Below, piece by piece: positions 5,931 through 21,700 of a DNA stretch of 64,000 bases (its first letter is position 1; each line of letters opens with the position of its first letter). The notes below the pieces were generated by a model. It did no database searches. It saw nothing but the letters and a program-made list of their open reading frames with translations, and was not told where the DNA came from. The DNA comes from an uncultured Planctomycetales bacterium (GTDB taxonomy: Bacteria > Planctomycetota > MHYJ01 > JACPRB01). The stretch covers positions 3,451 to 67,450 of the forward strand of contig CAZGKV010000003.1 in assembly GCA_964526305.1 (NCBI GenBank). Direction: 5' to 3'. Made by a program: the position numbers and the translations under genes.

Positions 5931-6977
5931 ATGAGGTTGATCTCTTCTCGAGCTTGGCTTTGGCCGATGGCGCTCGTGGCCGGTCAACTGACTTCTTGCG
6001 GGGGGTGTGGCGGCGGGGGCGGTGGCGGAGGCGATTCGTCTTCGGACTCGACTCCCGCGGCCGAGTTGTCTTGGGTGAAGGACGCGGATAACCCCGTCGT
6101 CGTGGCGGATCCGACCAGCACGTGGGCGAACGGATCGGCGGAATCGCCCCACGTCCTCAAAATCGGCGATGTCTATCTCCTGTGGTTCGTGGCCGCGGAC
6201 AGCGCAGGGACGTGGCGGATCGGTCTGGCGCAGTCCCTCGACGGAGTCGAATGGGGACGCCACCCAAGCCCCGTACTGAGCCCGGGTCTAAGGGACAGTT
6301 GGGACGATCTCTTCGTGACCGACCCGTGGGTGATCTTCGACGGTCTGAAATACTGGATGTGGTATCGAGGGGGAAGCACGAAGGGGACTTTCGCGATCGG
6401 ACTCGCGACCTCCGATGACGGGGCGACCTGGAGCAAGTTCTCCGGCAATCCGGTTCTTCAAGCGGGCTCGGGCGGTTCCGGGGCCATGCTCGTCATGACG
6501 GCCGGGCCTCCGGCTCCCTCCGCCGGAAACGTCTTCAGCCCCGCCGTTCTCCGAACCGACTCGGGATTCGCCATGTGGTACAACGAGGGGAACGACGGGA
6601 TCCATCATGCTACGTCAGCGGACGGCGCCACCTGGGTGAAGACAAAGTCCGATTCCGTCTTCGGGCCAGGCGAAGGGGACTCCGGGACTCCGACGGATTG
6701 CACCGTTCTTCAGGACGGCAACGTCCTTCGGATGTGGTATGCGAGTCTGGACTCGGAAGGAATCCGGAGAATTGGGACTGCCGAGTCCTCGGATGGTATC
6801 ACCTGGACGCGATCCGGAGAGAATCCGGTTCTCGCGCCGGGGGATCCCGGGTCGTGGGACGACGGCGGCGTGGGAGAGCCTTCGGTCATCAAGGACGGCG
6901 ATGGATTCCGGATGTGGTTCACCGGCGAGCGGTCGACCGGGGGGAGTTGGGCGATCGGGCACGCCCGCTATCAATAG
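5931..6977 (+). CDS. lipoprotein with GH43/GH32-like five-bladed beta-propeller domain (putative glycoside hydrolase)
   Basis: Signal peptide with lipobox LTSC followed by a poly-Gly linker. Repeated WDD...DP.V motifs (WDDLFVTDPWVIFDG, GSWDDGGVGEPSVIKDG) typical of the GH43/GH32/GH130 beta-propeller superfamily. Confidence 0.6.
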   Translation: MRLISSRAWLWPMALVAGQLTSCGGCGGGGGGGGDSSSDSTPAAELSWVKDADNPVVVADPTSTWANGSAESPHVLKIGDVYLLWFVAADSAGTWRIGLAQSLDGVEWGRHPSPVLSPGLRDSWDDLFVTDPWVIFDGLKYWMWYRGGSTKGTFAIGLATSDDGATWSKFSGNPVLQAGSGGSGAMLVMTAGPPAPSAGNVFSPAVLRTDSGFAMWYNEGNDGIHHATSADGATWVKTKSDSVFGPGEGDSGTPTDCTVLQDGNVLRMWYASLDSEGIRRIGTAESSDGITWTRSGENPVLAPGDPGSWDDGGVGEPSVIKDGDGFRMWFTGERSTGGSWAIGHARYQ

Positions 6978-7965
6978 ACGCGAGGTTGGCCAGACACGCC
7001 CGGGCGTTCGGATGGTTTCGTCCGAGCGTCCGGGCGAAGATGTCGAGCGCCCGACGCAGGAATTCGCGAGATTCGTCCGCGCGACCGCGAGAAGCGTACA
7101 GGAGGCCGAGGTTGTTGAGGGTGATGGCGACGTCGGGATGGCGGCGCCCGAAAATCCGTTCCTTGATCGCGAGAGTCCGGCGATAGAGTCGGTCGGCCTC
7201 CCCTATTTGATTGCGCTCCGCCTGCACGGCGGCGAGGTTGTTCAGATTCACGGCGACCTCATAGTGGATCGGCCCATAGGTTCGCCGAAAGAAGGCAATG
7301 GCCCGACGGAACATCGGCTCGGCCTCGTCCAAGTTCCCCTGGTCCTGGAGGAGGGAGGCCAACGCCGCTAGGTCGGCCGCCACTACGGGATGCTTCGGCC
7401 CCAGCTCGCGGAGATGAATCTCCACCGAGCGCCGGGCGTAGGGCTCTCCACGCCGGGGATTCCCCCGCGCGTGCTCGAGACCTGCGAGATTGTGATAGAG
7501 CGATCCGCGGAGAGGATGGGCACGGCCTCGGAGGAGTCGAAGGGCGGAGCGATACTGCCGTCCGGCTTCGGAAAACCGACCCATGTACTTATAGAGGATG
7601 CCCAGGAAGTTTCGGATCGCGGCGACGTCGGCACCTTCCTTCGCCCGCATCAGGCATCGTTTCAGCCGCCGCTCGGAGGCTCGATACCGTCCTCGAATTC
7701 GGAGGAGGTTCGCGCTTCGGACTTCGGCTTCGAGGCGGATTCGTGCGTCGTGGCCAGCCAGACTCCCGGCTCGGCGATAGCATCTCTCCGCTGTTTGGAG
7801 CGACCCCATCGCCTCTTCGATCTCGCCGAGGACGAGGTGGGCGTCCGCCGATCCCGTCGTCCGGAGCGCGCGCAAGGCGGAAGTTCGGGCCTCCCGGAGA
7901 CGTCCGGCCGCGAGAAGTCGTTCCGTCGGGGTGACAGCGTCGGACTCCGCAACCGAACCGCGCAT
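6919..7965 (-). CDS. tetratricopeptide-repeat protein (TPR_10/TPR_12, kinesin-light-chain-like)
   Basis: Repeated 42-aa units ...NLA.LY..QGR..EAE.L..RAL.I.E...G..HP.VA..LNNL... The ORF track extends to 7995 through a GTG, but an ATG at 7965 has a strong RBS GGAAGGAGGT 7 nt upstream. The 3' end overlaps the convergent gene by 59 nt. Confidence 0.75.
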   Translation of the reverse strand: MRGSVAESDAVTPTERLLAAGRLREARTSALRALRTTGSADAHLVLGEIEEAMGSLQTAERCYRRAGSLAGHDARIRLEAEVRSANLLRIRGRYRASERRLKRCLMRAKEGADVAAIRNFLGILYKYMGRFSEAGRQYRSALRLLRGRAHPLRGSLYHNLAGLEHARGNPRRGEPYARRSVEIHLRELGPKHPVVAADLAALASLLQDQGNLDEAEPMFRRAIAFFRRTYGPIHYEVAVNLNNLAAVQAERNQIGEADRLYRRTLAIKERIFGRRHPDVAITLNNLGLLYASRGRADESREFLRRALDIFARTLGRNHPNARACLANLASIDSGRARSPNSPRSTARR

Positions 7966-8169
7966 CCAGGGACCTCCTTCCGCTCTTGCGCGCACCCGAA
8001 CTTGGGGAAGCTATCGGGATCGTGTTCGGACCAGCTTCTCGTTGTGATTGAGTCCGCCGCCCATGGAGCGGCCGGACCGGAGGCCCGTCTTCACCTGGAG
8101 GAGTTTCTGGTTGTGATTCATGCTTCCACCCAACGCGCCACACCGAAGGTTCGTCTTCACTCGTTTCAT
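7960..8169. repeat. direct repeat unit, copy 1 (~210 bp; small ORF plus RBS/5' end of the TPR gene)
   Basis: About 90% identical to 8375-8582 by eye. Alignable blocks include gcacccgaact..ggaagctatcgggatcgtgttcggaccag and ggagcggccggaccggaggcccgtcttcacctggaggagtttctggttgtgattcatgcttccacccaacgcgccacaccgaagg. Confidence 0.8.
8011..8169 (-). CDS. small ORF (52 aa), copy 1 of a tandemly duplicated unit: MKRVKTNLRCGALGGSMNHNQKLLQVKTGLRSGRSMGGGLNHNEKLVRTRSR
   Basis: Not in the ORF track (<60 aa). ATG start and TAG stop, with an internal GG(S/G)(M/L)NHN(Q/E)KL(L/V) repeat. Sits 45 nt upstream of the TPR gene start. A paralogous copy lies 413 bp upstream. Confidence 0.35.
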   Translation of the reverse strand: MKRVKTNLRCGALGGSMNHNQKLLQVKTGLRSGRSMGGGLNHNEKLVRTRSR

Positions 8170-8374
8170 CTCAGCACCCTTTCACGATGTTGGAACTACA
8201 TATCGCATGGATTTCCGGTCGTTTTGAATATTCTTGCGCAAGCCAAGACATAAGCACAACGCATTCGCCACCAGCGGGTTAAGATGCAAGCAAACCCGTC
8301 CGCTTCCCCAAGCCCCCTCTCCGAGGGTGAGCGGAGCGTCCGCACGCGAGGCAAGGTCGGCGCCTTGGATTCCT

Positions 8375-8582
8375 CGGTGGCGCGGTCCCTCCAGGCCCCT
8401 CCTGCACGCACCCGAACTCGGGAAAGCTATCGGGATCGTGTTCGGACCAGTTTCTCATTGTGATTGTCGCCGAACATGGAGCGGCCGGACCGGAGGCCCG
8501 TCTTCACCTGGAGGAGTTTCTGGTTGTGATTCATGCTTCCACCCAACGCGCCACACCGAAGGCTCGTCTTCACTCGTTTCAT
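8375..8582. repeat. direct repeat unit, copy 2 (~208 bp), carrying a degenerate copy of the TPR gene 5' end
   Basis: See copy 1. Downstream of the small ORF the copy retains GTGCGTGCAGGAGGGGCCTGGAGGGACC, a degraded version of the TPR start GTGCGCGCAAGAGCGGAAGGAGGTCCCTGGATGCG, with the ATG lost. Confidence 0.8.
8427..8582 (-). CDS. small ORF (51 aa), copy 2: MKRVKTSLRCGALGGSMNHNQKLLQVKTGLRSGRSMFGDNHNEKLVRTRSR
   Basis: Good RBS AAAGGAGA 7 nt upstream of ATG. Differs from copy 1 by one 3-nt in-frame indel and a few substitutions, including a synonymous AAG/AAA change. Same start/stop architecture. Confidence 0.35.
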   Translation of the reverse strand: MKRVKTSLRCGALGGSMNHNQKLLQVKTGLRSGRSMFGDNHNEKLVRTRSR

Positions 8583-8915
8583 CGCAGTCTCCTTTACCGA
8601 TTCGAGAACAGTCGATCACCAACAACCAAAGCCGATCTACAGGATCGTTTCGCACGCCTTCCGTCGAGATCCCAATCCGGAGGCGGAGGGATCTTCGCAC
8701 CACTCACGATCCATCGTCGTGTTCGGACGCCTCGCGCGCTTCTCGTCCTACAGACATAGCGCAATCGATCTCCGAGTTCCGTACCTTTCCTCTTTGTCCG
8801 GGGTCCCCAAGAAGAGTCCTTCGCGGAATGCGCGGTCCTCTTCCTGGCCGTCTACCCCGAAGCGCGGGGATTCGGACACGGAGGGAAAGGGCGGAGAGGC
8901 AATCAGGCGGGTCGA

Positions 8916-9626
8916 TCACACCCAGGGCAAGAGCATCCCCGTTCGACTCTTGTACTCCTTCCATTCTGGATGGCGCGACATGGAGGCTTCCTTCATGAGG
9001 ATGTTGGCCGCGAAAACGTTTCCCCAGACCCATAGAAGCACGATCCACGGAAACCAATGCCGCACGAGGAGCGCGTATGCGGCATAGAGCATCATCTCTC
9101 CAAGATAGTTTGGATGGCGCACGAGTCGGAACATTCCGTCGGTAATGAGTCCGGGACGCAGGCGCAACGTGAAGTACTTCTGCGCGTCCGCCGTCATCAT
9201 GATGACGACGCCCAGCGTGTGGAGCGCGATGCAGGCGGCCAGCCAGGTCCCCCCCGGGTCGCGCTTTCCTCCCAGTCCGGAAATGAGGATCACCGGGAAC
9301 GACCAATAGAGCGCCAGAACGAGAAGAAAGCTCATCAACGCTCCGCCGAAGGTGATGCGAACGTCCCATTTCGGATCGGGGAGCGCCGCGTGCTTGAGGA
9401 GCCAGCACAGGCCGTACGATCCGTGGAGGGCCAGGTAGACCCACGCCGACGTCGACCAATTGTCGAAGGCCCACATCAGCGCCAGAACGAAGGGAAGCGT
9501 TCCGCCCTTCTGAACGTTGATCACCCACGAGAGCTTGAGGAGCTTCGGTCCGCCGAGGAATTCCGTCGAGAGGTGCCGGTTGAATCCCGCCCAGGCGCGG
9601 AGCCAGGCCGGAGGGGTCTCGTTCAC
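8916..9626 (-). CDS. membrane methyltransferase of the ICMT/PEMT (isoprenylcysteine carboxyl / phospholipid methyltransferase) family
   Basis: Multi-TM protein with RHPNYLGEM and the C-terminal EASMSRHPEWKEYKSRTGMLLP (EE..L...FG..Y..Y...rliP-like) signature. Confidence 0.7.
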   Translation of the reverse strand: MNETPPAWLRAWAGFNRHLSTEFLGGPKLLKLSWVINVQKGGTLPFVLALMWAFDNWSTSAWVYLALHGSYGLCWLLKHAALPDPKWDVRITFGGALMSFLLVLALYWSFPVILISGLGGKRDPGGTWLAACIALHTLGVVIMMTADAQKYFTLRLRPGLITDGMFRLVRHPNYLGEMMLYAAYALLVRHWFPWIVLLWVWGNVFAANILMKEASMSRHPEWKEYKSRTGMLLPWV

Positions 9627-9706: not shown

Positions 9707-12316
9707 ATGACTGAGGATTCGGGAGATCCCAACGACTCCTTGGAGGAACGATTCCTCGAAGGCATGAGGGATCACGAGCGTTCCCGCCGCCAGGCCGCCC
9801 ATCGATACGAGAAGCTCCAAGAGATCGGACACGGGGGATTCGCCACCGTCTACAAGACCCTCGATCACGAACTCAATCGCACCGTCGCCCTCAAGCAACT
9901 TCGCCACGATCGTGCTCTTCGCTCGGAGGCCCTCCTCCGATTTCGGCGCGAGGCAGAAGTCGCCTCCCGGCTTTCCCATCCCGCGTTGGTCCCAGTCTAT
10001 GACGCCGGCGAGATCGACGGGGCTCCCTTCATCGTCATGGAGCTGGTCGAAGGCGAGCCCTTGGACGCGGTTCTCAAGCGTCGGCATCTGGGACTGCGGG
10101 TTCTCGTGGAACTCCTCGAGAAGGCGGCCCGCGGGGTCGCTCACGCCCACCAGCACGGAATCGTGCACCGAGATCTCAAGCCACAGAACATTCTCGTCAC
10201 TCCCGCCGGGGAACCCAAAGTGGCCGATTTCGGATTGGCGCACCTTCTGGAATCGGACGAGGTGCTCACCCGGACGGGAACGGCCGTCGGGACACCGTCC
10301 TACATGTCGCCGGAGCAGGTCGAAGGGCGCGTCAAGGAGATTTCGACCCGGACCGACGTGTATGCCCTGGGAGCCATCCTCTACGAAATCCTTACAGGAC
10401 GGACTCCGCATCTCGGTCAGACGCCCAAGGAGCTCTACGACAAGATCGTCAGTGACGATCCGGTTCTTCCCCGAGTGATCTCCCCCATCCTCCCCCGAGA
10501 CTTGGAGACCATCTGTCTCAAGGCCTTGGAGAAGAAACCGACGCGCCGGTACGAGACGGCCCAAGAGTTCGCGAACGAGCTCCGGAGATTCCTTCTAGAC
10601 GAGAACATCTTGGCCCGTCCTCCGGGGGTATTCCTTCGAGGCCTGCGATGGACCCGGAAGCATCGTACGCTGATGGGGATCGTCGGAGTGTTTCTTTTCG
10701 CCGCAGCGATCGGAGGAGGGCAGGCGTGGCTCCGAAACGCCGCCCGGAATCGGGATCTCCGGCGCTGGCAGGAGCGTGCCGCGTCGGCCATGGACGCGCA
10801 ACGATGGTCGGAGGCCGCTCGGTACTACGCGGAGGCGCAAAAGCGGGCTCCCGAGGATACGCACCTTGCCATGAAGCAACGAGCGGCCGAGTCGATGGCA
10901 AAGGCCGCTCGGGCTATGGAGCGGGCGACACGCGCCCGGACAATCGCCGTGGAGGAGAACTCGCGGTCCGAACACCCCCGGTCGGCCGCTTTGTCGGCTC
11001 AAGAAGCGGAGGAAGCCGCCCGAGAGGCCCTGGCCCTGGAACCGACGCTCACGGCAGCGAAGACTATCCTGGCCGAAGTCTACTTCTGGAGATTTCAGGG
11101 AGCATGGAAGTCCAAGGATTACGAGGGAAGTGAGGTTTGGGCTCGGCAGTGCCTGAATTACGCTGAGGAGTCGCATCGCGCGCAAATCTACGGTGAGGTG
11201 GAGTTGGCCCCGAATCCCTCGGTAGAACGAGCCTATCTTTTTCGGTACTCGAATCGCGGATCCCGCCAAATCCCTCTCCCCTGCTCGGCCACGGGAGAGG
11301 TTCTCGAGACGGAGATCGCCTCCGTCGAGAGCATTCCTTCCACGGCATCAGAGGAAGCGAAGGCCCGCGTGCGGACCGGGAGCGCCTACCGACTCGACGA
11401 TCTCGCATTCAACGAGGTCCGGTTTCCTCTTCGGCTCATTCCGGGGTCGTATCTAGTCCGACTTCGGCGAGACGGAGCGGTCGAGACCCGCGTGCCGCTC
11501 TTCGTAGGTCCCGGAGATTCGATTCATCTCGAGATTCCCCTGCTCCCCAAGGATGGGTTTTCGGAAGGGTTCATCTACGTTCCCCCGGGGCCGGCGCTCC
11601 TGGGCGGGGACCCCACGGCCGAGCCGATCGAGAGTTCGCGGTTCTCTCCGACGCGCACGATGGTGGCGGGATTCATCCTCATGAAGTTCTCCGTCACGTG
11701 CGCGGACTATCTCCCCTATCTCAACGACCGAAAGCGGCACACGATCGAGGAGGCGGAGCGAAGGATGCCGAAGGATTTCGGGAGTGTTCGCCACTTCCAG
11801 CGGAACGGGGACGCCCTTTCCCTGGGCTGTCAGGGCGGGGATCACGCCCTCGAGGGGCTGCTCCTTCCCGCTGTCGAGGACTTTGCGGGATGGTTCACCC
11901 GAACCCATGGGAATGGGAAGTGGGTCTTCCGGCTCCCAACGGGCAAGGAGTGGGAGAGAGCGGCGCGGGGGGCGGACGGTCGAAATTTTCCCTGGGGGAA
12001 CCGATTCGATCCGGCGCTGGCGGATGCGCGAAGAAAGACGATCTCGCACGACATGATTCGAGGAAGAGCCGGGCCCCGGTTCGGCCTCTTCCCTGGCGAT
12101 GAGTCTCCGTTCGGAGTTCGCGATATGGTCGGGGTGGTCTCCAATTGGCTCGGGACTTCCACGGTGAGCCAGACGATTCGAGAGACCGCGGGCGGTTCGT
12201 ACTCGGAGTTCGAGACTCGGTGGTGTCTCTCGATGCTTCGGAAACAGATGTTCGTGGACGAAAAAAGCTCGTACCCGGGCATCGGCTTCCGTCTCGCGGC
12301 CTCCCTCCCGAAGTGA
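9707..12316 (+). CDS. Ser/Thr protein kinase fused to a C-terminal FGE-sulfatase (SUMF1-like) domain
   Basis: Kinase subdomains are present: glycine loop GHGGFATVYK, VALK, catalytic loop HRDLKPQN, DFG, and SPE. A TM segment follows. The C-terminal region FSVTCADYLPYLND...RLPTGKEWERAARGADGRNFPWGN...GFRLAASL matches the FGE-sulfatase fold. Confidence 0.85.
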   Translation: MTEDSGDPNDSLEERFLEGMRDHERSRRQAAHRYEKLQEIGHGGFATVYKTLDHELNRTVALKQLRHDRALRSEALLRFRREAEVASRLSHPALVPVYDAGEIDGAPFIVMELVEGEPLDAVLKRRHLGLRVLVELLEKAARGVAHAHQHGIVHRDLKPQNILVTPAGEPKVADFGLAHLLESDEVLTRTGTAVGTPSYMSPEQVEGRVKEISTRTDVYALGAILYEILTGRTPHLGQTPKELYDKIVSDDPVLPRVISPILPRDLETICLKALEKKPTRRYETAQEFANELRRFLLDENILARPPGVFLRGLRWTRKHRTLMGIVGVFLFAAAIGGGQAWLRNAARNRDLRRWQERAASAMDAQRWSEAARYYAEAQKRAPEDTHLAMKQRAAESMAKAARAMERATRARTIAVEENSRSEHPRSAALSAQEAEEAAREALALEPTLTAAKTILAEVYFWRFQGAWKSKDYEGSEVWARQCLNYAEESHRAQIYGEVELAPNPSVERAYLFRYSNRGSRQIPLPCSATGEVLETEIASVESIPSTASEEAKARVRTGSAYRLDDLAFNEVRFPLRLIPGSYLVRLRRDGAVETRVPLFVGPGDSIHLEIPLLPKDGFSEGFIYVPPGPALLGGDPTAEPIESSRFSPTRTMVAGFILMKFSVTCADYLPYLNDRKRHTIEEAERRMPKDFGSVRHFQRNGDALSLGCQGGDHALEGLLLPAVEDFAGWFTRTHGNGKWVFRLPTGKEWERAARGADGRNFPWGNRFDPALADARRKTISHDMIRGRAGPRFGLFPGDESPFGVRDMVGVVSNWLGTSTVSQTIRETAGGSYSEFETRWCLSMLRKQMFVDEKSSYPGIGFRLAASLPK

Positions 12317-14479: not shown

Positions 14480-16378
14480 TCACTCCCGGATGCCCCACCA
14501 GCGAATCGTCCGATCCGCGCTTCCTGTGGCCAGAATCGTCTTTCGGGGATGGAAAGCGACGGCAACGACTTCGTCTTGATGGCCGCGCAGCGTCTTGATT
14601 TCCCGTCCGTCCGGGAGACTCCAGAGTCGTGCCGTACGATCGGCTCCACCGGAGGCCAAGAGTCTCCCGGAGGGGTGCATGGCGAGCGAATACACGTATC
14701 CGGAATGACCGGTGAGAACTCCCGACGGATTCCCCGAGGGGACGCTCCAAAGCCGGATCGTCCCATCCGCGCTTCCGGACGCCAGGAGCGAGCCCTCCGG
14801 AGTGAAGGCCAACGCGAGAATCAGTCCCGCATGCCCCTGAATCACCCGAGTCGGAGCATTGCTCTTTCCGTCCCAGATGCGAATCTCCTGATCCTGTCCT
14901 CCCGAGACCATCCATTCTCCCTTGGGGCTGACGGCGACCGCAAAGATCGGTTGGGTCCCGGCGCGCCAAGTTTTGACTCCCTTTCCCTCCAGGACATTCC
15001 ACAGAGTGAGATCCAAGTCGCTTCCGCACGTGAGCAGGGTCTTTCCATCCGGGCTGAAGGCCATCGCCGTGAACGAGTTTCCGGTCTTGGAAAGGGAGTG
15101 ACGGACCGAAGTAAAGGGGGCTTCTCGGAGGAGAACTCGATCGTCCTTTCCCGCCGCGGCTAAAAGACGGCCATCCGGGCTGAAGCGGACCGCGTTGACC
15201 CACCCCGCATGTCCCCCCAGACGCCCCCGTTCGCTCCCTGCCTGATCCACCAGCCTCACTTCTTGAAACGTGGCCGCGGCGACGGTATCTCCGTCCCTCG
15301 AAAAGTCCAGGGACTTGATTCCATATTCGAGCGTTACCGGCGCCCGGAGTTCGGCGAACCGATCCGCTTCAGGAACGGCAGGTTTCTCCTGCGGGGGAGG
15401 AACGGGCGGCGCCGGGAAATTCGGTCGCGGACGCGCGAGGAAGTACCCTGCGGGAGCCAAGGCCAGGAGGATCAACGCGGCGACGGCCCAGATCCAACCA
15501 CGACGTCTCCCTGGAGGATTCGATAGCGCAGCTTCGATTCCTGTCCGCAACTCCAGGATGCTCGCGGTGCGCTTCGAACGGTCGTGCGCAAGAGCGGAAG
15601 CGATGACGGAATCCATGCGGGCGTCCACCCGAGATAGGCGTGAAACCGGCTCGAATTGTCCCAAGGGTCTCTTTCCCGTCAAGAGCTCGTAAAGGACAAC
15701 CCCGGCGGCGTACACATCGGCCCGGGCATCCACTTCTCCACCTCCGGTCGACTGCTCCGGGGCCATGTAGTGTGCGGTTCCCAGAAGGTCTCCCGAGCGA
15801 GTAAGGGCGAGCTTCTGACCGGGTTCTTCCTGCAAGCTCGCCAGACCGAAGTCTGCGATCTTGAGTCGCCCCGATCGATCCAAGAGTAGGTTTTCCGGCT
15901 TGATGTCCCGGTGAACGATTCCGGCTTGATGGGCGCACGCCAAGCCGTCGCACAGCTGGAAGATGAAGTGCGCCGCCTCGGCCGGCGGGAGCTTCCCCCC
16001 GGCGATCTTCTCTCGAAGCGTGCTCCCTTCGACCAACTCCGTAACGAGATAGCAGGTGCCTTCCTCACATCCGAAATCATGGACGGTGACGATGTTGGGG
16101 TGTTGGAGCGAGGCGAGCGCTTGAGCCTCACGACGGAAGCGTGCGTTGAAAAGGGGATTCTGCGTTTGGTGGAGGATCTTGAGGGCGACAAGACGGTTGA
16201 GATCCGTTTGTCGCGCCCGGTATACCGTAGCCATGCCCCCCTGCCCTAGGGGCTCCATGACCTCGAGACCGCGGAATCGCGTGCCCGCTGCCACAGCGAC
16301 AACCTGGGGCGCCGCGGTACATTGCGGGCATCGTGAAGCCGCATAGACGGAACCGCAGGTGGAACACGTTTGAATCAC
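14480..16378 (-). CDS. Ser/Thr protein kinase with N-terminal zinc-ribbon, TM segment and C-terminal WD40 beta-propeller
   Basis: CSTCGSVYAASRCPQC zinc ribbon; kinase motifs (GQGGMATVYRA, HRDIKPEN, DFG, APE); seven repeats of the WD40 type (...SPDG..LA.GS.D..I.LW...). Confidence 0.85.
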   Translation of the reverse strand: MIQTCSTCGSVYAASRCPQCTAAPQVVAVAAGTRFRGLEVMEPLGQGGMATVYRARQTDLNRLVALKILHQTQNPLFNARFRREAQALASLQHPNIVTVHDFGCEEGTCYLVTELVEGSTLREKIAGGKLPPAEAAHFIFQLCDGLACAHQAGIVHRDIKPENLLLDRSGRLKIADFGLASLQEEPGQKLALTRSGDLLGTAHYMAPEQSTGGGEVDARADVYAAGVVLYELLTGKRPLGQFEPVSRLSRVDARMDSVIASALAHDRSKRTASILELRTGIEAALSNPPGRRRGWIWAVAALILLALAPAGYFLARPRPNFPAPPVPPPQEKPAVPEADRFAELRAPVTLEYGIKSLDFSRDGDTVAAATFQEVRLVDQAGSERGRLGGHAGWVNAVRFSPDGRLLAAAGKDDRVLLREAPFTSVRHSLSKTGNSFTAMAFSPDGKTLLTCGSDLDLTLWNVLEGKGVKTWRAGTQPIFAVAVSPKGEWMVSGGQDQEIRIWDGKSNAPTRVIQGHAGLILALAFTPEGSLLASGSADGTIRLWSVPSGNPSGVLTGHSGYVYSLAMHPSGRLLASGGADRTARLWSLPDGREIKTLRGHQDEVVAVAFHPRKTILATGSADRTIRWWGIRE

Positions 16379-16451: not shown

Positions 16452-18662
16452 ATGACGCTGAATCCGAGTACCGCGGCCCAGTTCTATATCAAACTACGAA
16501 GCGACGCCCTCTCGCGCGACGGCAGTACGCCGCTGCTCGTCACCCATGCCGACGGTAGCGAGGGATTATCGAGGCCCTGGCAATTCACCGTCGAGTTCGT
16601 TTCCCACGATCTCGATGTCGAAGCGATCATGAGTCGCCGAGTCTCGCTTGTCGTCCTCCACAATCTCGGGGAATCCTCGCCCGGGAGACCCAATCTGGTG
16701 GAGCTTCAGTTCAACGGAGTGCCTCTCTCCTTGGAGCATTGCGACAGCGGCTCCTCTGCGGGCACATGGCGGGCGTACCAGATGCTCCTCATTCCCGAAA
16801 TCGCGACTCTTTCCTTCACGATACGATCCCGCGCCTTCGTCGGGAAGACGGCGCCGGAGATCGTCCGCCAAGTCTTGGAAGAGCACGGACTGCGCGAGAC
16901 GGAGCATGAATACGAATTCCGACTTTCGCGCGAGTACCGCTCCCTTCCTCACGTCCTCCAGTATCAGGAATCGGATCTTGCCCTTGTTTCGCGCCTGTTG
17001 GAGCACGAGGGGATCTTCTATTACTTCTCCCAGGCCCGAGGGGACGAGGGTCGAGATACGGTCGTCTTCGGAGACTCCGTGGCAGCCTACCCCAACCCTC
17101 TCCCAGGAGTTCCCTCCACCATCTCTTATCGACCCGCAACCGGAGCGCCCGAGAACGTCGACTGGTGGGAGACTCCCACCGTCTCTTCGTTTCACTACCG
17201 AAGGACGTTTGGTCATGGCATCGTGGAGCTGGAGGACTTCGATCCGCGCACCTTCGTCGCTAGGGTCGAGGGAAACTCCGAAACCCCGCCGAACGCAGGC
17301 ATCAATAGGGCAACGCTGTTCGAGTACGGCAACCTGGCGGAAGGCGAGGTGGACGCGCGTCGACTCCTCGAAACGCGGATCGACGAAATCCGTTCTCGCG
17401 CGAAGAGCTTCGGGGGTAGATCCAACGATCGCACGTTCCGTCCGGGGAAGAAGGTGCGTTTGAGCGATCACTACAAACCGGACTATAACGCAGAGTACCT
17501 CCTGACCGAAATGACGCACGCCTGGACGCAGGAGCTGAGTCTCGCGCCGACGCCAGGGGCCGTCGCTCGGTCCTATGCCAATCAATTCGTTTGTATTCCC
17601 GCGGAGCAGTGTTTCCGGCCGTCCAGATCTACTCCCCGCCCCATCCTTCCTTTGCTCGTCGGGCGCGTCCGTGGACCCGGTTCCGTTCCGAACCTGAATT
17701 CCCAGGGCTCCTATCAGGTCGAACTTCCGTTTCAAGTCGGTGATGAGCGAGCGAGCCAAACGGTAACGATGACCAAGGCAGAGCCGGGGGCCGGGCCCAA
17801 TCGCCAGCACTTTCCCCTCCTGCCCGATTCCGCCGTCTTGGTCCAATACCTTCACGGGGAGGCCAATTCCTGCACCCCGATCATCACCGGAGCGGCCCAC
17901 TGGCTGGGCCACCCGAGTCCGACCGTGGACGAGAACAACACCCAATACCGCATGCGCATGGCCAACGGTGTCGAATGGACCTTCGACGACGGCGGCGGGC
18001 AGCACATCCGAATCCACTGTCCGACGGAAAACGCCACGCTCCATTTGGGGGCCGAGCGGGAGGGAGTCGATCCCGGGGCGTCCATCACGACGACCGCCTC
18101 AGGTGAATTCCTCGCGATGGATCGCATCGCGCTCGTGTGCGGCGTCCGAGACCGAGACGGACTTCAACAGGTTTACGGAACCATGACTACGGCCATCAAT
18201 GAAATCGTCGACGGCCTCCAAGCGGATGTCCACGCCGGAAACTCCGTTTCACCGACGCCCCCACGGCCGAATACCGAGGGAAAGAAGAAGGCTTTCGTGG
18301 GAGGAGAAGTGGTCTTGGTGGGCGCTACCCATGCCGTCGGAGTCGTGGCGTCGGGAGAATCGGGAACCTGCGAAATCGCCGCGAACAGTACGGGAGTCTA
18401 CGGAGATTCGTTTCTGGTCCTTTCCGGCGCAGCGGTCGGCATCAGCGCGGACAGCGTGTTTCAGGTAACGACATCCGCCGGACACTTGACGCTCCAATCA
18501 GCCACCATGGCCAGCATCAAGGCGGTCCAGAAGATCCACCTTCTTTGCGGCCCAAGCCAGATTTCTCTGGAAGCCGACAAGCTGATCCTGGCGGCCCCGA
18601 AGGTCGTCGTTGCGGCGGCCGATTTCGTCTCCACTGTTCCTCCCCGGGTTGGCTCTCCATGA
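16452..18662 (+). CDS. vgrG: VgrG-like spike protein (T6SS TssI / phage baseplate hub gp27-gp5-like)
   Basis: RBS GAGGAGCG. N-terminal ...EGLSRPWQFTVEFVSHDLDVEAIMSRRVSLVV..., ...RAFVGKTAPEIVRQVLEEHGL..., ...YQESDLALVSRLLEHEGIFYYF..., VTMTKAEPG and a C-terminal beta-helix-like GxV repeat region match conserved VgrG blocks. Confidence 0.75.
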   Translation: MTLNPSTAAQFYIKLRSDALSRDGSTPLLVTHADGSEGLSRPWQFTVEFVSHDLDVEAIMSRRVSLVVLHNLGESSPGRPNLVELQFNGVPLSLEHCDSGSSAGTWRAYQMLLIPEIATLSFTIRSRAFVGKTAPEIVRQVLEEHGLRETEHEYEFRLSREYRSLPHVLQYQESDLALVSRLLEHEGIFYYFSQARGDEGRDTVVFGDSVAAYPNPLPGVPSTISYRPATGAPENVDWWETPTVSSFHYRRTFGHGIVELEDFDPRTFVARVEGNSETPPNAGINRATLFEYGNLAEGEVDARRLLETRIDEIRSRAKSFGGRSNDRTFRPGKKVRLSDHYKPDYNAEYLLTEMTHAWTQELSLAPTPGAVARSYANQFVCIPAEQCFRPSRSTPRPILPLLVGRVRGPGSVPNLNSQGSYQVELPFQVGDERASQTVTMTKAEPGAGPNRQHFPLLPDSAVLVQYLHGEANSCTPIITGAAHWLGHPSPTVDENNTQYRMRMANGVEWTFDDGGGQHIRIHCPTENATLHLGAEREGVDPGASITTTASGEFLAMDRIALVCGVRDRDGLQQVYGTMTTAINEIVDGLQADVHAGNSVSPTPPRPNTEGKKKAFVGGEVVLVGATHAVGVVASGESGTCEIAANSTGVYGDSFLVLSGAAVGISADSVFQVTTSAGHLTLQSATMASIKAVQKIHLLCGPSQISLEADKLILAAPKVVVAAADFVSTVPPRVGSP

Positions 18663-18690
18663 TCCCCAATCCTGGGGTATCCTTGGAGAC

Positions 18691-19923
18691 ATGAGAAACA
18701 GCGTTCGATGGCTCTTCATCCTCCTCCTCGCTACCGGCCTCCCGGCCGAGGAGACGCAAGTCGCGCTCAAGTCCGGTGAGAAGCTCGAGGGGCGGTTCTC
18801 GGCCGACGCGGAGGGCGTGATCCTCCTCGATGCGGGCCAGCAGAGAAAAGTGCCCTGGAGCGATGTGACGGAGATCCGCGGTCTGCTCGATCAGCCTCCT
18901 TCCGATGGGGAGCGGGAGGCGTACAAAGAAAAGCGATCCGCTGCGAGCACGGTAGACGATTGGTCGGCGCTGGGTCGATGGTGCACCCGGTATGGAATGG
19001 CTCCGGAAGCCGCGGAGGCCTTCGACGAAGCCGTGAAGCTCGATCCGGACAACAAGGTCCTTCGACGAAATGCCGGGTACGCCCAGGTCGAGGGCGCGTG
19101 GAGGAAAGGAAGCGACCTCTTCGCGGAGTGGAAGAAGGATGTCGACCTGCGAGATCCTGAGGCGCTTCTCGCTCTTGCGGACCGGTGCGCCGAGAACACT
19201 CTCTGGGACTACCAACGGCGGTGTGTCACCGCGGCCGTGGTGCTGAGGAAGGATCACCCTCAGGCGCTACTGCGGTTCAAGCCGACGACGGCGAATTCGT
19301 TCCGCCCATCGGTTGCGCTGTTCCCTCCGCTCAAGGGGTTGGTGTGGGCTTGGCCCGACAAATGTGGCCACCATTCCAAGCACGGCTACATGACCTTCGC
19401 GCTCGACCTGATCCTCGTGGATCAGCGTGGAAACCACTATCGCGATTCGGGCTGGGAGAACCACGACTACCTGGGGTGGAACGCGCCCATCTACGCCGTC
19501 GCGGACGGAACCGTCACGGACGCGCGAGATCATTTCGACGACGAACCGCCTCTCAAGGGGAGGAACAACGGGGATGCGGCCAACCATCTATCGATCCGAT
19601 GCGGAAACACCTTGGTTTTCCATCAGCACCTCAAGAAGGGTTCGCTGAAGGTCAAGACCGGCGATGCGGTGCGTCGCGGCCAGGAAGTCGCCCGAGTCGG
19701 GAACTCGGGGAACGCCTCCTATCCTCATCTCCACTTCGTCGCCTACCACTGGTTTGAGTTCGAAGGCGCATCCGACTGGCTCTCCGTTCCCTTCGCGCTC
19801 GACGACTACGAGATCGCCTTCTTGAAGCCTCAGGATCCCGGTCCCGTCAAGCGCGTCGGAGTGGCCTGCCGAAATGCCGTACCTCGCGAGGGTTGGATCA
19901 TGAGGTGGGCCGGGCCGAAGTAG
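18691..19923 (+). CDS. secreted M23 (LytM/lysostaphin-type) metallopeptidase with N-terminal domain of unknown function
   Basis: Start placed at ATG 18691, with signal peptide MRNSVRWLFILLLATGLPAEE; the ORF track begins at 18610 inside vgrG. M23 motifs: HHSKHGY...FALD, GAPIYAVADGTV, and GNSGNASYPHLHF (HxH). Confidence 0.8.
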   Translation: MRNSVRWLFILLLATGLPAEETQVALKSGEKLEGRFSADAEGVILLDAGQQRKVPWSDVTEIRGLLDQPPSDGEREAYKEKRSAASTVDDWSALGRWCTRYGMAPEAAEAFDEAVKLDPDNKVLRRNAGYAQVEGAWRKGSDLFAEWKKDVDLRDPEALLALADRCAENTLWDYQRRCVTAAVVLRKDHPQALLRFKPTTANSFRPSVALFPPLKGLVWAWPDKCGHHSKHGYMTFALDLILVDQRGNHYRDSGWENHDYLGWNAPIYAVADGTVTDARDHFDDEPPLKGRNNGDAANHLSIRCGNTLVFHQHLKKGSLKVKTGDAVRRGQEVARVGNSGNASYPHLHFVAYHWFEFEGASDWLSVPFALDDYEIAFLKPQDPGPVKRVGVACRNAVPREGWIMRWAGPK

Positions 19924-21323: not shown

Positions 21324-21700
21324 CCTGTTCGGCTTGCGAAGAACGGCTTCTCGATTGGCTGGACGGATCGCGCGAACCGATGGTCGAAGAGCACCTGGCC
21401 GCTTGCGCACCGTGTCGTGGGCTCTTCGAGTCGGCGCGATCCACGGCAGAGACCTTGAGATCCGCCCCGGCCGTTGTCCCACGAATCCGGCCCCGCCTCC
21501 GGTGGCGCTGGCCTGCCGCCGCGGCGGCGGTTGCGGTCATCGCCGGCGCGGGATTCCTCGCGACTCGTCGGGACGAATCCCCGCCCAAGCGCCTTCGCAT
21601 CCAAGTCGTCGATGCCGCCAATCGTGTTGAACCGGGTCACGTCGACGCTGTCTTGGACTCGATCGAAGGCGGGCCGCTGGCGGATCGAGGCTCGCGATGA
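21320..21700 (+). CDS. anti-sigma factor, zinc-finger (zf-HC2) type, single TM
   Basis: ATGA overlap with the sigma gene. CSACEERLLDWLDG...HLAACAPC matches the zf-HC2 motif. A hydrophobic segment WPAAAAAVAVIAGAGFLA follows. Confidence 0.6.
   Translation: MTCSACEERLLDWLDGSREPMVEEHLAACAPCRGLFESARSTAETLRSAPAVVPRIRPRLRWRWPAAAAAVAVIAGAGFLATRRDESPPKRLRIQVVDAANRVEPGHVDAVLDSIEGGPLADRGSR

What the first reader, a model, noticed from the sequence alone, without database searches (positions are those of the whole stretch)
7955..8590. Tandem segmental duplication (~210-bp units, 413 bp apart) each carrying an intact 51-52-codon ORF with an internal NHN(Q/E)KL repeat, immediately upstream of a TPR gene
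Both copies keep ATG, stop and an RBS; copy 2 has AAAGGAGA. They differ by an in-frame 3-nt indel plus a few substitutions, one of them synonymous, so the reading frame is preserved between copies. The peptides (MKRVKT.LRCGALGGSMNHNQKLLQVKTGLRSGRSM(GGGL/FGD)NHNEKLVRTRSR) are basic and themselves internally repeated. Copy 2 also dragged along a now-degenerate copy of the RBS and first codons of the TPR gene, so the duplication post-dates the operon arrangement. No family I know matches these peptides. They could be a small regulatory or precursor peptide pair, or the repeat could be a non-coding RNA element. An alternative +1 reading frame is open in copy 1 only.
Basis: seen in the sequence. 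Interest (0 to 1): 0.55.

Follow-up and report, generated by a model that had tools for sequence, protein, structure and literature searches.

The report
Paired NHN-repeat small protein genes
The two tiny duplicated ORFs are real genes from a large, widespread and so far unnamed family of small proteins built from repeated "GG…Asn-His-Asn-Gln/Glu" units; these genes sit beside TPR proteins, Ser/Thr kinases, ECF sigma factors and peptide exporters, which suggests an undescribed peptide-based signalling or secreted-peptide system.

Summary
Two minus-strand ORFs (8011-8169, 52 aa; 8427-8582, 51 aa) lie in a ~215-225-nt duplicated segment, 413/416 nt apart, directly upstream of a TPR gene. They are coding, not an RNA element. 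There is no Rfam hit and no excess RNA structure. The copies differ only at family-variable residues, and both changes inside the NHNEKL motif are synonymous. An exhaustive HMMER search and a profile search found at least 1,594 related small proteins, none with a Pfam or NCBIfam family. All are tandem ~20-aa units with a near-invariant N-H-N-(Q/E) core. In 72 loci from Acidobacteriota, Myxococcota, Planctomycetota, Chloroflexota and others, these genes recur next to four gene types. The first is an all-TPR (TPR_10/12) protein, often the next gene downstream, as here. The second is an ECF sigma factor (TIGR02999/PF07638) paired with a Hanks kinase. The third is a peptide exporter or processor (C39-ABC+HlyD, HExxH-protease-HlyD fusion, MFS). 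The fourth, less often, is an AfsR-like regulator. A reverse search starting from the TPR protein recovered NHN-repeat ORFs upstream in 4 of 5 relatives. The likeliest function is a disordered repeat peptide that docks on the partner TPR protein and is probably exported and processed as a signal. No experiment supports this yet.

The parts
8427..8582 (-). Copy 2 small gene, 51 aa: MKRVKTSLRCGALGGSMNHNQKLLQVKTGLRSGRSMFGDNHNEKLVRTRSR. It contains two NHN-repeat units.
   Evidence: ORF list. Called as a gene in public metagenome contigs. Scores 54 bits, E 6e-16, with two domains against a leave-out unit HMM.
8589..8596 (-). Ribosome-binding site of copy 2 (AAAGGAGA), 6 nt before the ATG.
   Evidence: Read from the sequence. 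Similar RBS-like motifs precede 74 of 88 family genes, against 11 of 88 in a control window.
8011..8169 (-). Copy 1 small gene, 52 aa: MKRVKTNLRCGALGGSMNHNQKLLQVKTGLRSGRSMGGGLNHNEKLVRTRSR. It contains two NHN-repeat units.
   Evidence: ORF list, public gene call, 55.5 bits and E 2e-16 against the leave-out unit HMM, query of the exhaustive HMMER search.
8177..8183 (-). Weaker RBS-like GAAAGGG upstream of copy 1.
   Evidence: Read from the sequence.
7957..8181 (-). Duplicated segment, copy 1. It runs from ~12 nt of 5' leader through the ORF and a ~45-nt 3' region up to the TPR start codon.
8385..8594 (-). Duplicated segment, copy 2. Its 3' end (about 8385-8405) is a decayed copy of the TPR RBS and start: a 9-nt deletion removes the RBS and ATG has become AGG.
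   Evidence: Alignments.
8186..8290 (-). Unique low-GC spacer directly upstream of copy 1 (46.7% GC against 64.4% for the window). It is a possible separate promoter region for copy 1 and the TPR gene. This role is inferred only.
   Evidence: Composition and lack of similarity to the region upstream of copy 2. No sigma-70-like site was found by the simple scan.
6919..7965 (-). Partner gene: a 348-aa all-TPR protein (TPR_12/TPR_10/NPHP3-type) with no other domain and no obvious signal peptide. Its RBS AAGGAGG lies at 7973-7979, 45 nt downstream of the copy 1 stop codon.
   Evidence: Pfam TPR_12 E 4e-57 and TPR_10 E 3e-40. Similar TPR proteins occur in 26 of 72 family loci, and in 12 of these they are immediately downstream on the same strand. 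The reverse search from this protein recovers NHN-repeat ORFs upstream.
9707..12316 (+). Hanks-type Ser/Thr kinase with a transmembrane segment, a TPR-like stretch and a C-terminal FGE-sulfatase domain, 1.1 kb from copy 2 and divergently oriented. It is a possible but unproven functional neighbour. Kinases are the commonest family neighbour elsewhere, but six occur in this window.
   Evidence: Pfam, kinase density in the window, kinase adjacency in other loci.

Best explanation
The two ORFs are tandem paralogues of a widespread, unnamed family of small, intrinsically disordered repeat proteins. I call them NHN-repeat peptides.

Each ~20-aa unit is a variable arm ending in Gly-Gly, a 1-4-residue spacer, and a near-invariant Asn-His-Asn-Gln/Glu motif. 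In this lineage the arm is basic: V-K-T-x-L-R-x-G.

Proposed mechanism, all of it inferred:
1. The peptide genes are co-expressed with the all-TPR protein encoded immediately downstream.
2. The iterated NHN units are short linear motifs that dock multivalently on that TPR array.
3. In most lineages the peptide/TPR pair is wired into an ECF-sigma/Hanks-kinase signalling module.
4. The peptides are handed to dedicated peptide exporters and proteases, so they act as multi-unit pro-peptides of an exported, processed peptide. This product would be a signal or bacteriocin-like agent, and the TPR protein would be its intracellular chaperone or receptor.

The duplication in this window is the usual way the family expands: 20 of 72 loci carry two or more copies.

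Shown: the ORFs are coding, they belong to the family, and the neighbourhood is conserved. Inferred: TPR binding, export, cleavage at Gly-Gly, and a signalling role.
For: Coding.
- No Rfam hit, and RNA folding is no better than shuffles.
- Copy differences fall at family-variable positions, while both changes inside NHNEKL are synonymous.
- Strong RBS.

Family.
- Exhaustive phmmer gave 24 hits at E<=1e-3, all repeat proteins with the same unit.
- The profile search gave 1,594 proteins at E<=1e-3, with no Pfam domain in all but one of the 120 listed.
- A logo from 410 units shows N 98%, H 99%, N 97%, Q/E 97%.
- A leave-out HMM scores the window ORFs at E 2e-16, against 0.35 for the next ORF.

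Disorder. AF2 gives pLDDT 48 with no secondary structure for the window peptide.

TPR partner.
- A similar TPR_10/12 protein occurs in 26 of 72 loci. In 12 it is the next gene on the same strand, with a gap of 126 nt or less.
- It accompanies the basic, acidic, Chloroflexota and actinomycete subfamilies.
- The reverse search from the window TPR found 5 relatives at 45-47% (L133-L136) or 37% (L141) identity. Four of them have NHN-repeat ORFs just upstream.

Signalling context.
- An ECF sigma (PF07638; TIGR02999 above cutoff) occurs in 20 of 72 loci, almost always directly adjacent to the peptide gene.
- Kinases of 820-950 aa are separated from peptide genes by 4-33 nt.

Export and processing.
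- HlyD + C39-ABC (+ABC) lies directly downstream in L007, L086, L098 and L110; L018 shows HlyD only before the locus ends. The Q...DCGPA...H catalytic motif is intact.
- A daptide-like HExxH intramembrane protease fused to HlyD occurs in 7 acidic-subfamily loci.
- MFS exporters occur in L030, L071, L089 and L057.
- Some members continue into a canonical '...LEQVAGG' leader end plus a Cys/Ser/Thr-rich tail (P0016, P0038, P0047).
- A Cys-containing subfamily has Sec-type N-termini (P0019, L078).

Precedent for repeat-to-TPR docking. AfsS repeats are required for binding the TPR-containing regulator AfsR (PMC10832544).
Against: - No exporter, HExxH protease or TIGR02999 sigma factor lies anywhere in this 64-kb window. 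The export step therefore has no local support for this organism.
- The window peptides have no Sec signal. Their N-terminus (MKRVKTNLRCGALGG) does not fit the LSxxELxxIxGG double-glycine leader consensus.
- Exporters are adjacent in only about 16 of 72 loci.
- Kinases and TPR proteins are abundant in these phyla (six kinases in this window alone), and I could not compute a genome-wide background rate.
- TPR binding was not tested.
- No promoter motif common to the family was found.
- No expression or proteomic data exist.
- One member fuses the repeats to a methyltransferase (L006). This fits a docking tag as well as, or better than, a cleaved product.
Confidence: 0.45

Rival explanations
1. 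Purely intracellular regulatory adaptor, working like Streptomyces AfsS. The small disordered repeat protein is never exported. It binds the neighbouring TPR protein, or TPR-containing kinases and AfsR-like regulators, through its repeats and modulates kinase/ECF-sigma/transcription-factor output.
For: - No signal peptide, and predicted disorder.
- The TPR gene is immediately downstream here and in 12 loci.
- Peptide genes are embedded between ECF sigma and kinase genes, in the slot where an anti-sigma factor usually sits (L130; L076, L112, L033).
- BTAD-NB-ARC-TPR (AfsR-like) genes flank peptide genes in L006, L084 and L089.
- NHN repeats are fused to a cytoplasmic-type methyltransferase in L006.
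- AfsS has 2-5 short Asn/His-containing repeats that are required for binding AfsR, and the kinase AfsK acts upstream (PMC10832544).
- No exporter lies in this window.
Against: - It does not explain the recurrent, directly adjacent C39-ABC/HlyD, HExxH-protease-HlyD and MFS genes.
- It does not explain the members that carry a canonical double-glycine leader plus core tail.
- It does not explain the Sec-signal-bearing Cys subfamily.
- Sequence homology to AfsS was not tested.
- The window TPR protein has no DNA-binding or NTPase domain.
Confidence: 0.3
2. Structural beta-solenoid or functional-amyloid-like subunit. Each unit forms a strand-turn-strand, and units stack with Asn/His/Gln ladders, as in curli CsgA or FapC. 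The result would be fibres or a metal-binding surface after export.
For: - AF2 of a 5-repeat member predicts two strands per unit.
- The best Foldseek matches are the FapC and CsgA amyloids, ice-binding beta-helices and bactofilin.
- The units are ~20-aa imperfect repeats with conserved Gly and Asn/Gln.
- Some members have up to 14 units.
- Type-I-like exporters are adjacent in some loci.
Against: - The model is low confidence (pLDDT 56.5, pTM 0.44).
- No Foldseek match is significant (best E 0.013, TM 0.2).
- The window proteins have only two units and are predicted disordered.
- The arm of the unit is replaced by helix-prone acidic sequence in another subfamily while NHN is kept. This argues for a recognition motif rather than a fold.
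- No curli or Fap-type secretion genes were seen.
Confidence: 0.1
3. Leader-like or substrate peptides for a post-translational modification centred on the Asn-His-Asn motif: a RiPP whose modifying enzyme is encoded elsewhere or is not yet recognised.
For: - A near-invariant 4-residue motif is iterated like the multi-core precursors of known RiPPs.
- A JmjC/cupin-8 oxygenase lies directly downstream in L016.
- A SAM-methyltransferase fusion and a B12-radical-SAM cluster with Nif11-like peptides lie next to NHN genes in L006.
- RiPP-type HExxH protease homologues are present.
- Two unannotated conserved neighbours exist (clusters c7 and c9).
Against: - No candidate modifying enzyme recurs across loci. 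Each was seen in one locus only.
- None lies in the window. The upstream DUF1295/ICMT-like gene is not linked to the family: a 90%-identical homologue sits in a different context without peptides.
Confidence: 0.1
4. The repeat is a non-coding RNA or DNA element, and the ORFs are fortuitous.
For: The 3' untranslated ~45 nt is conserved between the copies almost as well as the ORF. One alternative frame is open in copy 1.
Against: - No Rfam match at E<=1.
- Folding z-scores are +0.49 and +0.52.
- Protein-level homologues exist across several phyla with divergent DNA.
- RBS motifs are present.
- The substitution pattern respects the motif.
- The alternative frame is closed in copy 2.
Confidence: 0.02

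Closest known systems
AfsK-AfsR-AfsS system of Streptomyces (small repeat protein AfsS)
   Same: AfsS is a small protein of 63-87 aa with 2-5 short Asn/His-containing repeats (TxxDNHMPxxPA; NTHITD). It is encoded next to a TPR-containing regulator and has a Hanks kinase upstream. The repeats are required for binding the TPR-containing partner (PMC10832544). Some NHN-repeat genes are flanked by AfsR-like BTAD-NB-ARC-TPR genes (L006, L084, L089).
   Different: No sequence homology has been shown. The partner here is a bare TPR protein without SARP or ATPase domains. The family occurs mainly outside the Actinomycetota. It is frequently linked to ECF sigma factors and to peptide exporters, which AfsS is not.
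Double-glycine-leader peptides exported by C39 peptidase-ABC transporters (class II bacteriocins, Nif11/NHLP-type RiPP precursors)
   Same: The genes are small, often in tandem paralogous arrays, and lie next to HlyD + C39-ABC(+ABC) with an intact catalytic Cys motif. A Gly-Gly is present in every unit. Acidic-subfamily units (LSVEEMEEVIAP...) resemble the LSxEELExVAGG leader end. Some members end in a canonical leader end plus core.
   Different: The Gly-Gly context (V-K-A-G-G) does not fit the leader consensus. The motif is iterated 2-14 times instead of occurring once. No core peptide or modifying enzyme is evident in most members, including the window pair. No exporter lies in the window. 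NCBIfam NHLP models are matched only below their cutoffs.
RRNPP-type peptide signalling (Rap/NprR/PlcR/PrgX/AimR with Phr-like peptides)
   Same: A cytoplasmic TPR protein is encoded next to a small peptide gene, and the idea is that a processed peptide is the TPR ligand. One partner TPR has a faint RNPP_C match (E 9e-4, L007).
   Different: The peptides lack Sec signals. The TPR proteins lack HTH or phosphatase domains. The organisms are didermic Acidobacteriota, Planctomycetota and others. The link is to Hanks kinases and ECF sigma factors. The RNPP match is far below significance.
Kinase-associated ECF sigma factors (ECF43 and related groups, TIGR02999/PF07638)
   Same: The sigma factors next to the peptide genes belong to TIGR02999 and are paired with Hanks kinases and no anti-sigma factor. 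This is the arrangement described for kinase-regulated ECF groups (PMC7826278).
   Different: The text passages of that paper that I read mention no conserved small repeat protein or TPR partner in these modules. The window itself has no such sigma factor nearby.
Functional amyloid subunits CsgA/FapC
   Same: These also have ~20-aa imperfect repeats rich in Gly/Asn/Gln and a predicted strand-turn-strand per unit. They are the top, though non-significant, structural matches.
   Different: NHN-repeat peptides have no Sec signal and no curli or Fap machinery. The model is low confidence. The motif is conserved while the arms are not.

Membership tests
NHN-repeat small proteins (unnamed family defined here) | Two or more tandem ~20-aa units, each with a near-invariant N-H-N-(Q/E) motif | tested here: met
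   Both window proteins have two units (NHNQ and NHNE). A leave-out unit HMM gives 2 domains each, 25-29 bits per unit, with whole-ORF E 2e-16 and 6e-16.
NHN-repeat small proteins (unnamed family defined here) | Basic-subfamily arm [VI]-[KR]-[TS]-x-[VLI]-[KR]-A-G-G before the motif | tested here: met
   The window units read VKTNLRCGALGG and VKTGLRSGRSMGGG. The Ala position holds Cys or Ser (1% and 5% states in 410 units), and the Gly-Gly is displaced by 2-4 residues. This makes them a divergent but recognisable variant.
NHN-repeat small proteins (unnamed family defined here) | Significant sequence similarity to other members found by an unbiased search | tested here: met
   phmmer against 1.84 billion representatives gave P0005 at E 4e-14 and 22 further repeat proteins at E<=1e-3. 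The profile search gave 1,594 proteins.
NHN-repeat small proteins (unnamed family defined here) | All-TPR (TPR_10/12) partner gene adjacent, typically next downstream | tested here: met
   The window TPR gene lies 45 nt downstream of copy 1. The same arrangement occurs in 12 loci and was recovered by the reverse search.
Double-glycine-leader peptides / PCAT substrates | N-terminal leader matching LSxxELxxIxGG | tested here: not met
   The N-terminus is MKRVKTNLRCGALGG. Gly-Gly is present, but hydrophobic and acidic residues are not at the consensus positions (by inspection).
Double-glycine-leader peptides / PCAT substrates | Adjacent C39 peptidase-ABC exporter with accessory HlyD | tested here: not met
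   tblastn of the family-linked PCAT, HlyD and HExxH-HlyD proteins against the whole 64-kb window found nothing. The feature is met in relatives L007, L086, L098 and L110; L018 shows HlyD only.
RiPP precursors (general) | Co-localised modifying enzyme acting on a core peptide | tested here: not met
   No recurrent modifying enzyme was found in 72 loci. There are single cases only: JmjC in L016, and the methyltransferase fusion and B12-rSAM in L006. The window's DUF1295/ICMT-like neighbour is not family-linked.
AfsS-like small regulators | Small protein with 2-5 short repeats encoded next to a TPR-containing partner | tested here: met
   The window proteins are 52 and 51 aa with two repeats, and the TPR gene is adjacent. 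This is a resemblance in architecture only.
AfsS-like small regulators | Sequence homology to AfsS, and a partner that is an AfsR-type SARP-NB-ARC-TPR regulator | tested here: not met
   The window partner is TPR-only. AfsR-like neighbours occur only in L006, L084 and L089.
RRNPP peptide-receptor pairs | Sec-exported pro-peptide plus a TPR receptor carrying an HTH or phosphatase domain | tested here: not met
   The peptides have no hydrophobic N-terminal segment. The TPR protein has no additional domain.
Structured non-coding RNA | Match to a known RNA family, or folding energy below shuffled controls | tested here: not met
   Rfam gave 0 matches at E<=1. Folding z-scores are +0.49 and +0.52.
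Functional amyloid / beta-solenoid repeat proteins | Confident beta-solenoid model with significant structural matches | tested here: inconclusive
   The window peptide has pLDDT 48 and no secondary structure. A 5-repeat member has pLDDT 56.5 with strand pairs. The best Foldseek match is E 0.013, TM 0.2.

The most novel reading that the evidence does not exclude
NHN-repeat peptides are the ligands of a previously unrecognised peptide signalling circuit in didermic soil and sediment phyla (Acidobacteriota, Planctomycetota, Myxococcota, Chloroflexota). In this reading, an ECF sigma factor (TIGR02999 type) drives the multi-unit pro-peptide gene. A C39-ABC/HlyD, HExxH-protease-HlyD or MFS system exports the pro-peptide and cuts it into NHN-containing units. 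TPR domains, standalone or on Hanks kinases, then sense the units and feed back on the sigma factor. This would be a Gram-negative counterpart of RRNPP-type quorum sensing built from different parts.
Probability: 0.2. Interest if true: 0.85.

Novelty: new variant of a known kind. Interest (0 to 1): 0.66.

Why it matters
Small proteins are systematically under-annotated. Here a 52-aa ORF pair leads to a family of at least ~1,600 clustered sequences that has no Pfam or NCBIfam model and no mention that I could find in the searchable literature. The family has one of the most sharply conserved short motifs one can see: N-H-N-Q/E at 97-99% over 410 units.

Its genes are tightly associated with kinase-linked ECF sigma factors. 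The inputs and outputs of those factors are largely unknown in Acidobacteriota and Planctomycetota. The family is also associated with dedicated TPR proteins and peptide exporters.

If the peptides are ligands or adaptors of these modules, three things follow:
- It gives a concrete, testable handle on how kinase-dependent ECF sigma factors are controlled.
- It would extend the AfsS/AfsR principle (repeat peptide docking on a TPR regulator) far beyond Streptomyces.
- If the peptides are exported, it defines a new class of multi-unit secreted peptides in phyla that are hard to culture and rich in unexplored natural products.

Tried and rejected
1. Curated families. Pfam, NCBIfam and PADLOC scans of the peptides and of 20 family members gave nothing meaningful.

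2. Word-indexed homologue search with the single peptide found only itself. The exhaustive search was needed.

3. The search for related loci with the family alignment failed because no 7-10-column block was conserved enough. I replaced it with a custom DNA pattern of three NHN(Q/E) codon motifs. About 45 of its 120 hits were low-complexity chance matches such as Asn/His/Gln-rich tracts.

4. A metagenome scan for close relatives of the window peptide found none.

5. Orthologous-region test. Contigs with 90%-identical neighbours could not be retrieved. A contig with a 90%-identical DUF1295 gene (L003) and one with a 74%-identical acyl-CoA dehydrogenase (L143) are not syntenic and carry no NHN genes. 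Three further metagenome contigs are 100% identical to the window, so they give no polymorphism data. A dN/dS test on orthologues was therefore impossible.

6. The DUF1295/ICMT-like membrane methyltransferase upstream was considered as a peptide-modifying enzyme. I rejected it because it is not linked to the family elsewhere.

7. A search for a shared ECF-type promoter upstream of family genes (dyad enumeration, all 88 genes and the 26 next to ECF genes) found nothing above shuffled controls. The sigma-70/terminator scan was also uninformative.

8. The N-glycosylation sequon idea (N-x-S/T inside NHN-Q-T) was rejected as a defining feature. The window peptides and several subfamilies have K/R/G at that position.

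9. Literature searches for the motif strings (NHNQ, NHNET, VKAGG, 'NHN motif' and others) returned only noise.

10. A third degenerate copy upstream of copy 2 was suggested by a 12-nt match at 8717-8728. I rejected it as chance: E 0.78, with no extended similarity.

11. The afdb50 fold library was unavailable.

Full report
**1. Observation**

The region was read directly. The minus strand carries two small ORFs: 8011-8169 (52 aa, MKRVKTNLRCGALGGSMNHNQKLLQVKTGLRSGRSMGGGLNHNEKLVRTRSR) and 8427-8582 (51 aa...SMFGDNHNEKLVRTRSR).

The repeat finder reports two blocks of direct repeat, 8055-8188/8468-8601 (93% identity) and 7980-8050/8396-8466 (90%), offset by 413 and 416 nt. This means there is a 3-nt indel between them.

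A codon-level comparison shows 149 of 159 identical positions. There are three non-synonymous codons (N7S, G37F, L40D), a one-codon indel and two synonymous changes (N43, K45).

Similarity begins ~14 nt upstream of each ATG, so it includes the RBS (AAAGGAGA in copy 2). It continues ~45 nt past the stop codon, up to the start codon of the downstream TPR gene. In copy 2 that stretch has lost 9 nt (the RBS) and ATG has become AGG. The ~200 nt between the copies is unique, and its half nearest copy 1 is low in GC (46.7% against 64.4% for the window).

There is no third copy in the window. Three independent metagenome contigs are 100% identical over 2.7 kb.

**2. Coding or RNA?**

- Rfam finds nothing at E<=1.
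- Each unit folds no better than dinucleotide shuffles, with z-scores of +0.49 and +0.52.
- The non-synonymous differences between the copies lie at positions that vary across the family. Both changes inside the conserved NHNEKL stretch are synonymous.
- The alternative frame that is open in copy 1 is closed in copy 2.
- Most decisively, the proteins have relatives in several phyla (next section).

The RNA reading is rejected.

**3. A large unannotated family**

Pfam, NCBIfam and PADLOC do not recognise the peptides, and a word-indexed search found only self.

An exhaustive phmmer search of 1.84 billion representative proteins found 24 hits at E<=1e-3. All are small proteins made of tandem units such as LRVKTGVKAGGxxxNHNQSLL. 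A profile of 20 of them retrieved 1,594 proteins at E<=1e-3. Every source name among the 120 listed is 'hypothetical protein' except one ('CxxC motif-containing protein', P0104). One listed protein, P0127, has a Pfam domain.

A DNA pattern of three NHN(Q/E) codon motifs pulled 120 genomic loci from GTDB representatives. Sixty-eight of them encode proteins matching a unit HMM, with 2-14 units each. A further seven carry acidic or actinomycete-type variants that the HMM missed.

Taxa include Acidobacteriota (Blastocatellia, Bryobacterales, Terriglobia, Thermoanaerobaculia), Myxococcota (Sorangium), Planctomycetota, Verrucomicrobiota and Chloroflexota, plus some actinomycetes.

Across 410 units, the arm reads V/I-K/R-T/S-x-V/L/I-K/R-A-G-G. 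The core is N (98%), H (99%), N (97%), Q/E (97%), T/S (84%). In other subfamilies the arm is replaced entirely. Examples are the acidic LSVEEMEEVIAP(A/G)Lxx, the Chloroflexota VVQKPGRALTx, the actinomycete RRGISL, and the Cys-containing CSPxVCGS. NHN(E/Q) is retained in all of them. The motif, not the arm or the charge, is therefore the conserved element.

A unit HMM built without the window sequences scores the two window ORFs at 55 and 54 bits (E ~1e-16). The next best of 1,606 ORFs has E 0.35.

Family genes have RBS-like motifs in 74 of 88 cases, against 11 of 88 in a control window. Twenty of 72 loci carry two or more family genes, so the window's duplication is typical of the family.

**4. 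Conserved neighbours**

I clustered the ORFs of 72 loci and annotated the clusters.

(a) TPR partner. An all-TPR protein of 280-420 aa (TPR_12/TPR_10), similar to the window's at E<1e-10, is present in 26 of 72 loci. In 12 it is the very next gene on the same strand, with a gap of 126 nt or less, as in the window. This holds across the basic, acidic, Chloroflexota and actinomycete subfamilies.

As an independent check, I searched metagenomes with the window TPR protein. Of five relatives at 45-47% (L133-L136) or 37% (L141) identity, four have NHN-repeat ORFs immediately upstream (L133, L134, L135 with two, and L141). The fifth has only 184 nt of upstream sequence.

(b) ECF sigma and kinase. 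ECF sigma factors of PF07638, which score above the TIGR02999 cutoff, are present in 20 of 72 loci. In nearly all of these they are directly adjacent to a peptide gene. The arrangement is either divergent ([kinase<][ECF<][PEP>]) or co-oriented ([ECF>][PEP>][kinase>], for example L130).

The paired proteins of 820-950 aa are Hanks kinases with C-terminal TPR-like regions. They are separated from peptide genes by as little as 4-33 nt. Kinase-associated ECF groups lacking anti-sigma factors are known (PMC7826278). In the text passages of that paper that I read, no small repeat protein is mentioned.

(c) Export and processing.
- HlyD + C39-peptidase ABC (+ a second ABC) lie directly downstream in L007, L086, L098 and L110; L018 shows HlyD only before the locus ends. 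The catalytic Q...DCGPA...H signature is intact.
- All seven loci of one acidic-subfamily group carry a ~900-aa protein. Its N-terminal part matches the daptide intramembrane HExxH protease (NF041824, E 7e-58, below cutoff) and the YydH/LiaK RiPP protease. Its C-terminal part is HlyD.
- MFS exporters follow the TPR gene in the Chloroflexota loci and lie next to it in L057.

(d) AfsR-like regulators. BTAD-NB-ARC-TPR genes flank peptide genes in L006, L084 and L089.

(e) Single cases. These are a JmjC/cupin-8 oxygenase (L016), an NHN-repeat-methyltransferase fusion, and a Nif11-like-peptide/B12-radical-SAM cluster (L006).

Some members continue after the repeats into a canonical double-glycine leader end plus a Cys/Ser/Thr-rich tail (P0016, P0038, P0047). 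A Cys-containing subfamily has Sec-type N-termini (P0019, L078).

**5. The window locus in this light**

The window has the minimal version: two peptide genes plus the TPR gene.

The DUF1295/ICMT-like gene upstream (8916-9626) is not part of the system. A 90%-identical homologue sits in an unrelated context without peptides.

A membrane Hanks kinase with a C-terminal FGE-sulfatase domain lies 1.1 kb away (9707-12316). However, the window holds six kinases, so adjacency alone is weak evidence. No exporter, HExxH protease or TIGR02999 sigma factor is present in the 64 kb.

The organism is uncultured. The best named relatives of a housekeeping gene, at 57-66% identity, are Planctomycetota MAGs. 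A 74% relative's contig carries PSCyt/PSD1 genes typical of that phylum. This placement is tentative.

**6. Structure**

AF2 with the family alignment predicts the window peptide as disordered: pLDDT 48 with no secondary structure.

A 5-unit member gives a low-confidence model (pLDDT 56.5, pTM 0.44) with two strands per unit. Its best PDB matches are the FapC and CsgA amyloids and beta-helical ice-binding proteins, none of them significant (best E 0.013, TM 0.2).

I treat the beta-solenoid idea as a minority rival.

**7. Mechanism**

Shown:
- The ORFs are coding genes.
- They belong to a sharply defined family.
- The neighbourhood of TPR, ECF/kinase and exporter genes is conserved.

Inferred:
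- The NHN units are short linear motifs that dock on the partner TPR array. The precedent is AfsS, whose repeats are needed to bind the TPR-containing AfsR downstream of the kinase AfsK (PMC10832544).
- In many lineages the proteins are exported and cut, either by the C39 domain at the Gly-Gly that precedes every NHN or by the HExxH protease. This would give NHN-containing peptides that act as signals or bacteriocin-like agents.

I put 0.45 on the combined 'TPR-docked, exported pro-peptide' reading. I put 0.30 on a purely intracellular AfsS-like adaptor, which the window locus, lacking any exporter, fits equally well. The modification-substrate and amyloid-like readings get 0.10 each, and a non-coding element gets 0.02.

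**8. Novelty and verdict**

The components (small repeat peptide, TPR partner, PCAT export, kinase-linked ECF) each have precedents. The family, its NHN motif and this combination of neighbours are not in Pfam or NCBIfam, and not in the literature I could search. I therefore rate it a new variant of a known kind.

The finding is worth following up. It turns an anonymous 52-aa ORF pair into an entry point to a widespread, uncharacterised small-protein system. Function remains unproven, and the window itself offers only the peptide-TPR pair.

Noticed in passing
window 9707-12316, 14480-16378, ~24947-25813, ~36047-36949, ~41035-41919, ~54227-55120: Six Hanks-type Ser/Thr kinase genes lie in 64 kb. 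They include a kinase-TM-TPR-FGE-sulfatase fusion (9707-12316) and a kinase-WD40 fusion (14480-16378). This density is unusually high.
   Followed up: partly
window 16452-18662 and 18610-19923: A VgrG-like protein (Phage_GPD, E 2e-59) is followed by an M23 peptidase-domain ORF. This may be a type VI secretion spike/effector pair or a phage-tail-like module. A relative contig (L003) also has a Phage_GPD gene.
   Followed up: no
window 8916-9626 (-) and locus L003 10001-10699: A DUF1295/ICMT-like membrane methyltransferase is 90% identical between the window and a Logan contig, but it is embedded in completely different neighbourhoods on both sides. This suggests mobility of this gene or extensive rearrangement.
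   Followed up: partly
L006 2725-3624: Three NHN-repeat units are fused in frame to the N-terminus of a SAM-dependent methyltransferase (Methyltransf_23/31-type). This is a 'Rosetta-stone' fusion suggesting the repeats can act as a docking tag on a larger protein.
   Followed up: partly
L006 12384-15226: An NHN-repeat gene is followed by two 66-aa Nif11-like peptides (MTFNPQQLT...) and a B12-binding radical SAM enzyme. This is a separate RiPP-type cluster directly next to family genes and AfsR-like regulators.
   Followed up: partly
L111 3820-4722, L120 3256-4161, L093 5597-6751 (cluster c7); L018 2856-4238, L033 2384-3727 (cluster c9); L120 2200-2529, L106 4526-4921, L007 7293-7565 (cluster c8): Three further conserved neighbour families (~300 aa, ~450 aa, ~110 aa) recur next to NHN-repeat genes; members of c7, c9 and c8 were tested and have no Pfam or NCBIfam match. 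They are candidates for unknown components of the system.
   Followed up: no
P0019 (431 aa) and L078 3855-4637: A Sec-signal-bearing subfamily has the NHNETLVRD motif preceded by a CSPxVCG disulfide-like loop, repeated many times in a larger secreted protein.
   Followed up: no
window 21697-22608: There is a MucB/RseB-like ORF, which suggests an RpoE-type envelope-stress sigma module nearby. It is unrelated to the TIGR02999 sigma factors linked to the family.
   Followed up: no
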